Source: Candidatus Coprosoma sp.
GTDB lineage: Bacteria; Bacillota_I; Bacilli_A; RF39; UBA660
Assembly: GCA_963928595.1 (NCBI GenBank)
Contig: CAWVFK010000025.1
Location: 4,070-68,069, forward strand
Length of the DNA stretch: 64,000 bases
Reading direction: 5' to 3'
The notes under the pieces were generated by a model. That model did no database searches and had not been told where the DNA came from. It was given only the letters and a program-made list of their open reading frames with translations. Shown here piece after piece: positions 11,873 through 60,865 of this stretch. The translations under genes were made by a program, and so were the position numbers. Positions within the stretch are counted from its first letter, which is position 1; each line of letters starts with the position of its first letter.

Positions 11873-12250
11873 CTATGCGCACCTGTTTGTACTACAAGAA
11901 TTTACATAACTATATTTATATTGATTATTAGAACTATCAAAAGTTATTCTAACACATCCTGTCATAGGCTTATCATTTGTTGGGTCTATTACTTCTTTTT
12001 CACTATCTAGATATCCTTCTTGCTTTAAGAAGTCAATACTAACATCGCATGAAGCATCAGGTAAGCTTCGAACATTATCTGTTCCCCATCTTTCAGCGGC
12101 ATCAATAATAGTGTTTTTTTGTTCATTCAAAGTGTTTTCTCTAGAGTCACTGATTATTCCAACTATGGTTGGAACAGCAATGGTGGCCAAAATACCCAAT
12201 ATTACAATTACGGCTAGTAATTCAATAAGTGTAAAGCCGTTTTTTTTCAT
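11873..12250 (-). CDS. prepilin-type N-terminal cleavage/methylation domain protein (type IV pilin / pseudopilin)
   Basis: MKKNGFTLIELLAVIVILGILATIAVP is a class III signal (G|FTLIE). Cys pairs in the C-terminal globular part. Consensus TTGACA-N17-TATAAT promoter at about 12266..12294. No pilus assembly genes lie in the window. Confidence 0.85.
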   Translation of the reverse strand: MKKNGFTLIELLAVIVILGILATIAVPTIVGIISDSRENTLNEQKNTIIDAAERWGTDNVRSLPDASCDVSIDFLKQEGYLDSEKEVIDPTNDKPMTGCVRITFDSSNNQYKYSYVNSCSTNRCA

Positions 12251-12348: not shown

Positions 12349-12417
12349 GATATATTTTATTTTAACTTTTGCTCCCTGTGATTTGTCTTTATGTTAAAAC
12401 TATGTTATGATGTATAT

Positions 12418-12532
12418 AGATGAAGAAAACTTCATAAAATATTAAAGGAACATTCAATAATCCGATGTTGAGTGTTGCCACATATAATTGTGTATCACCT
12501 AAATCATTGGATGAGTTAGGTGATTTTCTTTT
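12418..12532 (+). ncRNA. putative antisense (antitoxin-like) small RNA, copy 1
   Basis: TTGTCT-N17-TGtTATGAT promoter (12383..12411). Hairpin ATGAAG/CTTCAT (12420..12435). Hairpin AACATTCAA/TTGAGTGTT. Terminator ATCACCTAA/TTAGGTGAT plus a T-run (12494..12532). No ORF. The ends are predicted, not mapped. Confidence 0.55.
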
Positions 12533-12615
12533 ATATTATTAATATAAATAGTAGAAATACAAGTAGGAAGGTAAGAATGACTAAAGAAAGAATTAAAATA
12601 ATTTTTCTTATTCAT
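12531..12615 (-). pseudogene. type I toxin-like small hydrophobic ORF, apparently disrupted by a 1-nt insertion in an A-run
   Basis: ATG 12615 behind AGAGAGG gives MNKKNYFNSFFSH, which is not hydrophobic. The +1 frame reads (I)RKIILILSLVILTFLLVFLLFILII* and ends at 12531. Removing one A from AAGAAAAAT (12601..12609) restores MNKKIILILSLVILTFLLVFLLFILII. Confidence 0.45.
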
Positions 12616-12742
12616 TATATTGCCTCTCTTCTAAATAGAGGTTTTGTCTCACTAAACTTACTGAATATTTCTTAATACAATTATAAAAAATAATTATATA
12701 AAATAATATATTATACTTTGTAAAAAATGGATGTGATAATTT

Positions 12743-16429: not shown

Positions 16430-16632
16430 AGTAAATCGATGACAAAGATTAGTAGTATAATTATTATTTTATAGAGAGTTAGTGGTTTGGTGGAAACTAA
16501 CAAATAACTTTATATGAATCTACTTTGGAGAGAAGTTTAAAACACTTCCGGGATGACCGTTATCATAATTAAGACAGCCGTATAGGATGGTACCGTATTG
16601 CATATACTCCTAACACCAGGCTGTCTTTTGCT
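16430..16632 (+). promoter_or_regulatory. T-box riboswitch leader, serine specifier (UCU)
   Basis: TTGACG-N17-TAGAAT promoter (16395..16423). GATGA/AGTA K-turn and S-turn elements. Lower stem CAAAG (16443..16447) / CTTTG (16523..16527). Specifier loop GAA-TCT-A with the codon at 16519..16521. T-box sequence GGATGGTACCGTA (16585..16597). Terminator AAGACAGCC / GGCTGTCTT plus Ts (16571..16630). Confidence 0.85.
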
Positions 16633-32487: not shown

Positions 32488-32682
32488 TTCTCATCACCTT
32501 TTTCGCAATAAAATTATACTATATTTTATGGCTTTAAGCAAATGTGTATATCTGTTTCAATTATTTAACAACTTGGAATTTTCTTGTTGAAAACAATATA
32601 ACTATTTGTTATACTTATGTGTAAGGAATATTTAATAGTTGGGCGCGGCCTCTACTCTTTTACAAGAATGGAGGTGGTGTTT

Positions 32683-32760
32683 ATGACTAAAAGAGATAAC
32701 TATTTCTTTTTCATAATTCTACTTCTATTTATTTTAGTATTCACTTTACTATATAAATAG
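32683..32760 (+). CDS. type I toxin-like small hydrophobic peptide, copy 2 (MTKRDNYFFFIILLLFILVFTLLYK)
   Basis: Not in the ORF track (25 codons). TTGAAA-N17-TGtTATACT promoter (32587..32615), about 60-nt leader, GGAGGTGG SD (32670..32677). The N-terminus MTKR is shared with copy 3. Confidence 0.6.
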   Translation: MTKRDNYFFFIILLLFILVFTLLYK

Positions 32761-32872
32761 AAACCGACGCCTAACTCATCAACAGTGAATTAGGCGTCCA
32801 AACACTTTTTGGTCACGTTCAACATTTGCGTATTGAATGTTCCTTTTTTATATTATGAAGTTTCCTTCGTCT
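32755..32872 (-). ncRNA. putative antisense (antitoxin-like) small RNA, copy 2
   Basis: TTGCCG-N17-TAAAAT promoter (32879..32907, minus strand). Same block order as copies 1 and 3 (GTATATAGACGAAGGAAACTTCAT ... AAAGGAACATTCAA ...). Terminator GACGCCTAA/TTAGGCGTC (32766..32798), with a T-tract that overlaps the toxin stop. Confidence 0.55.
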
Positions 32873-32952
32873 ATATACATTTTATCATAAATTTAACTTT
32901 ACGGCAAATACAAATATTTAATGTATGTTTGCTTTTTTTTAATTGAATGTTT

Positions 32953-60388: not shown

Positions 60389-60518
60389 ATTTTACCTCCA
60401 TACGGGAACTCTCTCCCTAATTCTATTGTAAAGGTAATATAGTGAGAAGTCAAGAAAAAATATTTTGACGATTTGGGCATTCCTTGAAAAAAAGTTAATT
60501 TTGTGTTATGATGTATAT

Positions 60519-60637
60519 AGATGAGAGAAATCTCATAAAATAAGAAAGGGAACATTCAGTTTTGTCTTGCCTGAATGTCTACCCAATTACATTTGTATAG
60601 ACATTTAATTCGTCATGAATTAAGTGTCATTTTTTTA
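60519..60637 (+). ncRNA. putative antisense (antitoxin-like) small RNA, copy 3
   Basis: TTGAAA-N17-TGtTATGAT promoter (60484..60512). Hairpins ATGAGA/TCTCAT (60521..60536) and ACATTCAG/CTGAATGT (60552..60578). Terminator GACATTTAATTC/GAATTAAGTGTC plus T7 (60600..60636). No ORF. Confidence 0.55.
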
Positions 60638-60719
60638 TGGCGATTACCAATAAGGTAAGGAGCAATAAAATGATAGTAACATACCTTAGAACCCTTAGTA
60701 CAAAAGTTCTTTTAGTCAT
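60627..60719 (-). CDS. type I toxin-like small hydrophobic peptide, copy 3 (MTKRTFVLRVLRYVTIILLLLTLLVIAIKK)
   Basis: Not in the ORF track (30 codons). TTGTAT-N17-TATAAT promoter (60785..60813), about 65-nt leader, GAGAGGAGG SD. The stop TGA (60629..60627) lies under the terminator of the convergent RNA. Confidence 0.6.
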   Translation of the reverse strand: MTKRTFVLRVLRYVTIILLLLTLLVIAIKK

Positions 60720-60865
60720 TATTATCAAACCTCCTCTCTATAAGAGATTCGGTAGACACTCAACAACTGATATTCCCTATATAAATTATACTATATAACT
60801 ATTCGTTATACAAGCGGATTTTAACAATTTGTTTTTTTCACAAATTAAAAAGGACATTTATGTCC

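What the first reader, a model, noticed from the sequence alone, without database searches (positions are those of the whole stretch)
60484..60813. Convergent 30-codon hydrophobic ORF and structured ~120-nt RNA between rny and greA: type I toxin-antitoxin architecture, one of three paralogous copies
The minus strand carries a TTGTAT-N17-TATAAT promoter (60785..60813), a ~65-nt leader and a GAGAGGAGG SD partly preceded by a complementary TCTCT. The ORF that follows (60719..60627) encodes MTKRTFVLRVLRYVTIILLLLTLLVIAIKK: a basic N-terminus, one TM-length hydrophobic helix and a Lys tail. The plus strand converges on it. It has a TTGAAA-N17-TGtTATGAT extended -10 promoter (60484..60512) followed by about 120 nt without an ORF. 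That stretch contains hairpin ATGAGA/TCTCAT, hairpin ACATTCAG/CTGAATGT and a terminator plus T7 whose T-tract lies over the ORF stop codon. Read on the ORF strand, the middle hairpin is followed by TCCCTTTCTTATTTT, so it would terminate the ORF mRNA. The two transcripts would therefore be complementary across their 3' regions, the layout known for txpA/RatA and bsrG/SR4 in B. subtilis. The same block order recurs at about 12383..12700 and 32587..32907. Stem 1 shows compensatory changes between copies (ATGAAG/CTTCAT versus ATGAGA/TCTCAT). The peptide does not match Fst, TxpA, BsrG or the other named families I know. All three copies sit between core genes rather than in prophage-like DNA.
Basis: partly seen in the sequence, partly recalled or inferred. 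Interest (0 to 1): 0.8.

Follow-up and report, generated by a model that had tools for sequence, protein, structure and literature searches.

The report
New gut-bacterial type I toxin-antitoxin family
Between rny and greA sits a small membrane-peptide gene facing a structured ~124-nt antisense RNA, one of a large, unannotated family of toxin-antitoxin-like cassettes found in at least 74 uncultured gut Bacilli genomes, none yet tested experimentally.

Summary
A covariance model finds exactly three copies in the window (98-114 bits).

The cassette belongs to a large family. A 26-nt motif from the RNA hit at least 113 stretches in at least 74 species-level MAGs of uncultured gut Bacilli (RF39-like; the window matches 'Firmicutes bacterium CAG:822').
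- The RNA has three helices with strong covariation (97.7% paired).
- 83 of 104 unique cassettes carry a convergent 22-34 aa hydrophobic ORF with an SD sequence masked by an anti-SD hairpin.
- The ORFs show coding-type codon periodicity.

New here: the toxin 5'UTR copies the RNA's middle hairpin and pairs with the mRNA's own 3'UTR. This closes the ~245-nt mRNA in 81 of 83 cases.

About 20% of cassettes keep the RNA but have a decayed ORF, window copy 2 (frameshift) included.

No Rfam, Pfam or NCBIfam family matches, the peptides are absent from a 15-billion-protein collection, and no phage or plasmid carries the cassette.

Verdict: a new type I toxin-antitoxin-like family with an unusual RNA layout. 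Toxicity and transcription are untested.

The parts
60484..60512 (+). Copy 1: antisense-RNA promoter, TTGAAA-N17-TGtTATGAT (extended -10)
   Evidence: In the family, TTG is present in 99-103 of 104 cassettes, the TG extension in about 90 of 104, and the -10 T/A positions are invariant.
60513..60636 (+). Copy 1: 124-nt antisense RNA. Parts: leader 60513-60520; SL1 60521-60536 (GAAA loop); A-rich linker 60537-60547; SL2 60548-60584; SL3 terminator 60600-60628; T7 60630-60636
   Evidence: Fold z = -4.5. Covariance model 100 bits. Covariation in all three helices.
60627..60719 (-). Copy 1: 30-codon ORF MTKRTFVLRVLRYVTIILLLLTLLVIAIKK (putative toxin)
   Evidence: Subfamily 'a' relatives occur in other MAGs. 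Differences between relatives follow codon positions.
60730..60749 (-). Copy 1: SD GAGAGGAGG (60730-60738) paired with anti-SD AAUCUCU (60742-60749)
   Evidence: Across the family the SD has P(unpaired) 0.16.
60751..60778 (-). Copy 1: 5'UTR arm AGGGAAUAUCAGUUGUUGAGUGUCUACC. It copies both arms of the RNA's SL2 and pairs with the mRNA's own 3'UTR (60547-60584 on the minus strand)
60785..60813 (-). Copy 1: toxin promoter TTGTAT-N17-TATAAT
   Evidence: Read. It is conserved between alleles. Family toxin promoters have TATAAT in 39 of 83 cassettes and a TG extension in 7 of 83.
60537..60781 (-). Copy 1: predicted toxin mRNA (~245 nt), ending after SL2' and the U-tract UUCCCUUUCUUAUUUU
   Evidence: Fold z = -6.35 with 5'-3' closure. 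The ends are inferred, not mapped.
12383..12532 (+). Copy 2: RNA promoter (12383-12411) and intact 121-nt RNA (12412-12532)
   Evidence: Covariance model 114 bits.
12531..12615 (-). Copy 2: frameshifted toxin pseudogene. The orthologue L107 encodes MNKKDFLILSLVILIFLLVFLLFIVLI. The SD and 5'UTR arm also carry changes
32587..32760 (+). Copy 3: toxin promoter TTGAAA-N17-TATACT (32587-32615), 5'UTR arm (32623-32650), SD hairpin, and ORF 32683-32760 encoding MTKRDNYFFFIILLLFILVFTLLYK
32758..32907 (-). Copy 3: antisense RNA (32878 down to 32758) and its promoter TTGCCG-N17-TGaTAAAAT (32879-32907)
   Evidence: Covariance model 97.8 bits.

Best explanation
Each cassette is a chromosomal type I toxin-antitoxin-like module from a family not described before.

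The parts. A weak sigma-70-type promoter makes a ~245-nt mRNA for a 22-34 aa single-helix membrane peptide. A stronger extended -10 promoter on the other strand makes a ~105-130-nt RNA. This RNA is perfectly complementary to the last ~95 nt of the mRNA, almost all of it 3'UTR.

Silencing in cis. The mRNA is silenced in two ways.
- A local anti-SD hairpin masks the ribosome binding site.
- The 5'UTR is a loop-less copy of the antisense RNA's SL2. It pairs with both arms of the mRNA's 3'UTR and closes the molecule 5' to 3'.

Inferred mechanism.
- The closing helix hides both ends of the mRNA, which would give stability. It may also help form the helix in front of the terminator U-tract.
- The antisense RNA starts pairing at the complementary SL3 and SL2 hairpins and displaces the weaker, G-U-rich 5'UTR.
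- The resulting long perfect duplex is cut by RNase III, and the freed ends are degraded. The peptide is therefore made only when the RNA runs out.

Shown versus inferred. Sequence, structure, conservation and covariation are shown. Transcript ends, toxicity, the order of pairing and the nucleases are inferred.
For: Real and strand-specific RNA:
- 3 window hits at 98-114 bits against 27 bits or less on the reverse strand.
- 116 hits in other loci.
- 97.7% of cells paired, with 360 double-change cells against 71.7 in shuffles and 26-42% paired when partners are slid.
- G-U pairs make SL2 more stable on the RNA strand in 69 of 83 cassettes.
- The promoter is conserved.

Coding ORF:
- 83 of 104 unique cassettes have a hydrophobic ORF plus SD at a fixed place.
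- Differences at codon positions 1/2/3 are 748/229/1041 in subfamily b.
- A second allele at the same greA-rny site has a different hydrophobic ORF with compensated hairpins.

Cis-silencing:
- SD P(unpaired) is 0.16.
- The cognate 5'UTR-3'UTR duplex is -33.8 kcal/mol, against -19.9 for non-cognate pairs and -13.8 for shuffled sequences. The cognate partner ranks first in 28 of 83 and within the top 5 in most.
- The cis pairing is stronger than 5'UTR-RNA pairing in 82 of 83.
- The MFE closes 5'-3' in 81 of 83.

These are the hallmarks that T1TAdb uses to recognise type I toxin mRNAs (PMC8594479).

TA-like asymmetry:
- 21 of 104 RNAs lack an intact ORF.
- 110 of 111 toxin-like ORFs that could be evaluated face an RNA.

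Tandem arrays of two or three cassettes occur.
Against: - There is no expression data. Both transcripts and their ends are predictions.
- No toxicity or rescue data exist, and all hosts are uncultured.
- Loci were collected through the RNA motif, so 'RNA without toxin' is easier to see than the reverse.
- The predicted closing helix does not change SD accessibility (0.16 against 0.17), so its role is not established.
- How translation would ever be switched on is unknown.
- On the toxin strand SL2' is weakened by C-A mismatches, so the toxin terminator is uncertain.
- The near-invariant 5' leader and SL1 of the RNA have no explanation in this model.
Confidence: 0.75

Rival explanations
1. A harmless small membrane protein whose level is tuned by a cis-antisense RNA. 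The layout is the same but nothing is toxic and there is no addiction logic.
For: Nothing here measures toxicity. The peptides match no toxin family. The cassettes sit stably at syntenic core-genome sites and are absent from phages and plasmids.
Against: - The gene carries double cis-silencing and faces a stronger antisense promoter.
- There are many divergent paralogues and tandem arrays per small genome.
- The ORF often decays while the RNA is kept.
- The peptide varies widely, keeping only its hydrophobicity and charged ends.
All four fit toxins better than a dedicated housekeeping subunit.
Confidence: 0.12
2. The RNA is the main functional unit. Its invariant 5' leader and GNRA hairpin bind a protein or act in trans, and the ORF is an accessory or a passenger.
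For: The 5' domain is far more conserved than the antisense part and has no complementarity to the toxin mRNA. Orphan RNAs persist with intact promoter and structure.
Against: - The search pattern fixed 20 of these positions, so part of the invariance is by construction.
- SL2 and SL3 co-vary with the cognate toxin UTRs, which ties the RNA to its own mRNA.
- The A-rich linker is explained as the complement of the toxin U-tract.
Confidence: 0.08
3. A non-coding repeat or miniature mobile element whose inverted repeats and promoter-like ends only mimic genes.
For: The cassette is multi-copy and intergenic, with an inverted repeat (5'UTR arm and SL2) flanking a short core. Alleles have been exchanged at one site.
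Against: - Copies within one genome are highly divergent yet keep the ORF, the SD, the codon periodicity and compensated helices.
- Nothing is conserved beyond the two -35 boxes, and no target duplications are seen.
- Cassettes occupy the same sites across species.
Confidence: 0.03

Closest known systems
par (Fst/RNA I-RNA II) of Enterococcus faecalis pAD1 and the Fst/Ldr family
   Same: Both have convergent promoters and an antisense overlap that lies outside the ORF. Both have complementary terminator hairpins as the likely first contact. Both mask the SD with a 5' stem-loop and sequester the extreme 5' end of the toxin mRNA in an intramolecular helix (the features are listed in PMC7472228).
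   Different: - There is no DRa/DRb-type complementarity to the translation start.
- The overlap is about 95 nt, not just the terminator.
- The 5'-end helix is about 26 bp and uses the antisense target itself.
- The peptides lack the PXXXG motif and the long charged C-tail, and do not hit the Fst model.
- The RNA is about 120 nt, not about 40 nt.
txpA/RatA, bsrG/SR4, bsrE/SR5 and yonT/SR6 of Bacillus subtilis
   Same: Gram-positive, convergent, 3'-overlapping antisense RNA of 100-200 nt. The antisense RNA is expected to act by promoting decay of the duplex (my own knowledge of these systems; the layout is summarised in PMC8594479).
   Different: - Those overlaps include the ORF, whereas here the median overlap with the ORF is 2 nt.
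- Those loci lie in prophage-like DNA, whereas these lie between core genes.
- There is no sequence or covariance-model match; BsrG scores 11.9 bits against a threshold of 55.
- These peptides have a basic N-terminus before the helix, not a charged C-tail after it.
hok/Sok (plasmid R1) and aapA1/IsoA1 (Helicobacter pylori)
   Same: The full-length toxin mRNA is closed by a long-distance 5'-3' interaction, together with SD masking (principle summarised in PMC8594479).
   Different: - In those systems the antisense RNA binds the 5' part, and 3' trimming activates the mRNA.
- Here the antisense RNA targets the very 3' segment that the 5'UTR pairs with.
- Here the closing helix does not gate the SD in predictions.
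- There is no homology; HokA scores E = 0.12 in 2 of 72 peptides.
SprA1/SprA1AS of Staphylococcus aureus
   Same: A 3'-overlapping antisense RNA whose overlap excludes the ORF.
   Different: SprA1AS acts through a non-overlapping 5' domain on the translation start. The equivalent pairing was tested here and is absent.

Membership tests
Type I toxin-antitoxin systems (generic) | Small (20-60 aa) hydrophobic protein encoded on a short mRNA | tested here: met
   ORFs of 22-34 aa with one TM-length helix occur in 83 of 104 cassettes. Codon periodicity supports coding.
Type I toxin-antitoxin systems (generic) | Antisense RNA of 60-200 nt with extended complementarity to the toxin mRNA | tested here: met
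   A ~105-130-nt structured RNA has its own promoter and terminator and is complementary to about 95 nt of the 3'UTR. It is predicted, not detected as a transcript.
Type I toxin-antitoxin systems (generic) | Cis elements that block premature translation (anti-SD hairpin, 5'-3' long-distance pairing) | tested here: met
   SD P(unpaired) is 0.16. The mRNA closes 5'-3' in 81 of 83 cassettes. The two ends co-evolve.
Type I toxin-antitoxin systems (generic) | The peptide is toxic when expressed and the RNA neutralises it | not testable with these tools
   Only indirect evidence exists: the ORF decays while the RNA is kept, and toxin-like ORFs almost never lack the RNA.
Fst/RNAII (par) | Fst-type peptide (PXXXG motif, charged C-terminal tail; Pfam Fst_toxin) | tested here: not met
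   None of the 72 peptides hits the Pfam model at E <= 1. The PXXXG motif is absent from all 72 (a single proline occurs in each of three) and the C-terminus is 0-4 residues.
Fst/RNAII (par) | Direct repeats (DRa/DRb) that make the RNA 5' end complementary to the toxin translation start | tested here: not met
   Duplex energy is -9.0 against -8.5 shuffled and -11.1 against -11.7.
Fst/RNAII (par) | Single bidirectional terminator shared by both RNAs | tested here: not met
   SL3 is followed by a T-run only on the RNA strand. On the toxin strand the U-tract follows SL2'.
TxpA/RatA, BsrG/SR4 and relatives | Match to the RNA or peptide models of the family | tested here: not met
   Rfam at the gathering threshold finds nothing in the window or in 15 other loci. 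BsrG scores 11.9 bits against 55. There are no NCBIfam or Pfam hits.
TxpA/RatA, BsrG/SR4 and relatives | Antisense overlap covers the 3' part of the ORF | tested here: not met
   The median overlap with the ORF is 2 nt, range -28 to +25. It is 10 nt in copy 1.
Hok/Sok, AapA/IsoA | Antisense RNA pairs with the 5' region of the toxin mRNA | tested here: not met
   The RNA is encoded opposite the 3'UTR. Its pairing with the 5'UTR is weaker than the cis pairing in 82 of 83 cassettes.

The most novel reading that the evidence does not exclude
The toxin 5'UTR is kept as a molecular mimic of the antitoxin, so the mRNA's own 5' end and the antitoxin compete for one 3'UTR site. This would make a three-state RNA switch: closed and stable, antitoxin-bound and degraded, or open. 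The long-range helix next to the U-tract may also act as the terminator stem. Every antitoxin in the genome, across all toxin subfamilies, carries the same invariant 5' leader and GNRA hairpin. That shared element could be a common handle for one host factor, putting ten or more toxin loci in a ~1.5-Mb genome under one control, for example for dormancy or abortive infection in uncultured RF39 bacteria.
Probability: 0.3. Interest if true: 0.8.

Novelty: new variant of a known kind. Interest (0 to 1): 0.62.

Why it matters
- This is a large family, present in at least 74 species-level genomes of an uncultured, genome-reduced gut lineage, and invisible to annotation. None of the ten representative peptides checked appears among 15 billion predicted proteins, and no Rfam, Pfam or NCBIfam model matches.
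- The session produced a calibrated covariance model (R1) and clear sequence rules, so the family can be annotated in metagenomes straight away.
- The layout, in which the mRNA 5' end and the antitoxin share one target, is a testable new way of wiring such a module.
- Many copies in a ~1.5-Mb genome raise the question of what these organisms use them for.

Tried and rejected
- Par-like or SprA1AS-like trans pairing of the RNA 5' domain with the translation start or the rest of the mRNA: no signal above shuffles.
- A 5-codon mini-ORF inside SL1 (AUG-ARR-GAA-AYY-UCA-UAA): the stop is lost in natural variants.
- A conserved ORF on the RNA strand: none.
- The closing helix as a gate for the SD: accessibility is unchanged when the 3'UTR is blocked.
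- Phage or plasmid carriage: 0 hits in IMG/VR, INPHARED and PLSDB.
- More, weaker copies in the window: none.
- Membership of known RNA or peptide families: none.
- The supplement of Fozo et al. 2010 is not held.
- No paper combines RF39 with toxin-antitoxin.
- An alignment-based pair count for the 5'-3' helix was prepared but not run, because segment boundaries were uneven. The cognate versus non-cognate energy test stands in for it.

Full report
**Check of the observation**

- The plus-strand promoter TTGAAA-N17-TATGAT with a TG extension lies at 60484-60512.
- The three hairpins lie at 60521-60536, 60552-60578 and 60600-60628, followed by T7 at 60630-60636.
- The minus-strand promoter TTGTAT-N17-TATAAT lies at 60785-60813.
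- The SD GAGAGGAGG is faced by AAUCUCU.
- The 30-codon ORF lies at 60719..60627.

The region from 60513 to 60638 folds with z = -4.5.

The same block order recurs at about 12383-12712 and about 32587-32907. The core motif occurs 3 times against 0.09 expected. A covariance model built later finds exactly these three copies (114, 100 and 98 bits). Elsewhere in the window nothing scores above 17.5 bits, and the reverse strands of the three copies score 27 bits or less.

- The copy 2 ORF carries a +1 A insertion relative to its orthologue and is a pseudogene.
- The T-tract covers the two terminal Lys codons, and the stop codon lies in the terminator stem.
- The leader is about 58 nt.

**Host and family**

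GreA of the window is found identically in 282 blocks of public assemblies.

In six such contigs the greA-rny spacer has two alleles.
- One allele is that of the window.
- The other encodes a different hydrophobic peptide (MTKKDFLISALIIIILLLIILLFQ), with re-paired SL2, SL3 and anti-SD/SD hairpins.
- Both promoters and the first ~45 nt of the RNA are identical between the alleles.

- They come from at least 74 assemblies (my count), all uncultured gut Bacilli. Their labels include Firmicutes bacterium CAG:822, Mycoplasma sp. CAG:611, Clostridium sp. CAG:1193, Ca. Ventrenecus, Ca. Faecisoma, 'Tenericutes' and Erysipelotrichales.
- A few are labelled otherwise, probably through binning errors.
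- L009 and L107, both from the CAG:822 scaffold HF990868.1, are syntenic with copies 1 and 2 of the window.
- GTDB uses CAG-822 as a family name within Bacilli, order RF39 (PMC11142082).
- One MAG has at least 9 copies. Tandem arrays of two or three cassettes occur.

**The RNA**

76 sequences align into one architecture:
- an 8-nt leader;
- SL1, a 6-bp stem with a GAAA or AAAA loop;
- an A-rich linker;
- a variable SL2;
- a spacer;
- SL3 followed by a U-run.

RNAalifold finds compensatory changes in 15 of 19 pairs.

On the 116-sequence model alignment:
- 97.7% of cells are paired;
- there are 360 double-change cells against 71.7 in shuffles (0 of 500 shuffles reach the observed value);
- slid controls pair only 26-42%;
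- the alignment is fitted to the model, which favours the structure somewhat.

The structure is strand-specific. SL2 has many G-U pairs, which would be C-A mismatches on the other strand, and it is more stable on the RNA strand in 69 of 83 cassettes.

The promoter is TTG-N17-TGnTAnnAT in about 90% of copies. The toxin promoter is weaker and lacks the TG extension.

No Rfam family matches.

**The ORF**

- 83 of 104 unique cassettes have a convergent 22-34 aa ORF with a strong SD at a fixed position.
- At least six peptide subfamilies share only a short basic N-terminus, one hydrophobic helix and a 0-4-residue tail.
- Differences between relatives follow codon positions. They are 748/229/1041 at positions 1/2/3 in subfamily b.
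- No Pfam or NCBIfam toxin model is hit.
- Ten representative peptides are absent from a 15-billion-protein collection.
- The gene callers left the greA-rny spacer empty.

**The toxin mRNA**

The predicted 245-nt mRNA of copy 1 folds with z = -6.35. A ~26-bp helix forms between its first 30 nt and its 3'UTR, alongside the anti-SD hairpin.

The 5'UTR is a loop-less copy of both arms of the RNA's SL2, so it is complementary to the mRNA's own 3'UTR. This holds across the family.
- Cognate 5'UTR-3'UTR duplexes average -33.8 kcal/mol, against -19.9 for non-cognate pairs and -13.8 for shuffled sequences.
- The cis pairing beats 5'UTR-RNA pairing in 82 of 83 cassettes.
- The MFE closes 5'-3' in 81 of 83 cassettes.
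- The SD is masked (P(unpaired) 0.16) whether or not the 3'UTR is available. The closing helix therefore probably serves stability, termination or access of the RNA, rather than control of the ribosome site.
- The A-rich linker of the RNA is the complement of the U-tract that follows SL2' on the toxin strand. That U-tract is the only terminator-like signal for the mRNA.

**Evolutionary behaviour**

- 21 of 104 cassettes keep an intact RNA but have a frameshifted, truncated or deleted ORF.
- Of 114 toxin-like ORFs in all held DNA, 107 face the RNA core, 3 lie at locus edges, and 3 of the other 4 face variant RNAs.
- Loci were collected through the RNA, so this asymmetry is suggestive only.
- The sites of copy 2 (ylbM/pyk) and copy 3 (prfA) hold a cassette in several species, with toxin decay in some.
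- No copy is on a phage or plasmid.

**Comparison with known systems**

- The generic hallmarks of type I systems as listed by T1TAdb are all present (PMC8594479).
- Against par/Fst (PMC7472228), the convergent promoters, the 5' stem-loop and the 5'-end helix are shared. The DRa/DRb pairing, the shared bidirectional terminator and the Fst peptide features are absent.
- Against txpA/RatA and bsrG/SR4, the 3' overlap is shared. Here it excludes the ORF (median 2 nt) and no model matches.
- Against hok and aapA1, the 5'-3' closure is shared, but there the antisense RNA binds the other end of the mRNA.

**Open points**

- The near-invariant leader and SL1 remain unexplained (notebook).
- Transcription, toxicity and the nucleases involved are untested.
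- No paper in the library links RF39 with toxin-antitoxin systems.

Noticed in passing
window 12531-12615 (-): The toxin ORF of copy 2 has a +1 A insertion in an A-run relative to the CAG:822 orthologue (L107), and changes in its SD and 5'UTR arm. Its antisense RNA and promoter are intact. The same site in L097 has a deletion of the SD and the first half of the ORF, and in L033 the toxin half is gone.
   Followed up: yes
window 60389-60865; L001-L006: Strains with identical GreA carry one of two very different cassettes at the greA-rny site. The exchange points fall inside the conserved promoter and 5' parts, which suggests replacement by recombination between paralogues.
   Followed up: partly
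window 16430-16614 (+): T-box leader (Rfam RF00230, 93.6 bits against a threshold of 93). This is the only Rfam family found in the window.
   Followed up: no
window 60420-60453 (-) and 60484-60512 (+): A TTGACT-N17-TACAAT promoter-like site for rny lies about 30 nt from the divergent antisense-RNA promoter. RNase Y would thus be transcribed back to back with an RNA it might degrade. This arrangement is seen only in this species, so it is probably coincidence.
   Followed up: no
window 11873-12250 (-): An ORF starting MKKNGFTLIELLAVIVILGILATIAVP looks like a prepilin-type N-terminal signal (a competence or type IV pilin-like protein). It lies next to copy 2 in a genome-reduced lineage. This rests on my reading of the sequence only.
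   Followed up: no
L021:1388-2211 (-), L057:5285-6135 (+): Three cassettes sit in tandem at a period of about 350 bp. Those in L021 encode different toxin subfamilies. The third cassette in L057 has a weak RNA score (59.7 bits) and no recognisable ORF.
   Followed up: partly
L061:3537-3730, L117 (reverse strand, stop at 802), L013:2752-3020: Variant partners occur. In L061 the RNA keeps the leader but SL1 is replaced. In L117 the leader is diverged (GAATATGT). L013 has a toxin-like ORF without SD whose downstream partner keeps only an SL3 remnant.
   Followed up: partly
L036, L041, L052, L100, L106, L115, L117: Some contigs carrying the cassette belong to MAGs labelled Muribaculaceae, Oribacterium, Clostridia or Clostridium. 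Given the AT-rich Bacilli-like sequence, these are more likely binning or labelling errors than horizontal transfer.
   Followed up: no
family-wide: The SL2 sequence class and the toxin subfamily are correlated but not locked. For example, ACATTCA arms go with both the 'KKDFL' and the 'TKRE/D' peptides. This hints at exchange of the ORF within a conserved RNA scaffold.
   Followed up: partly
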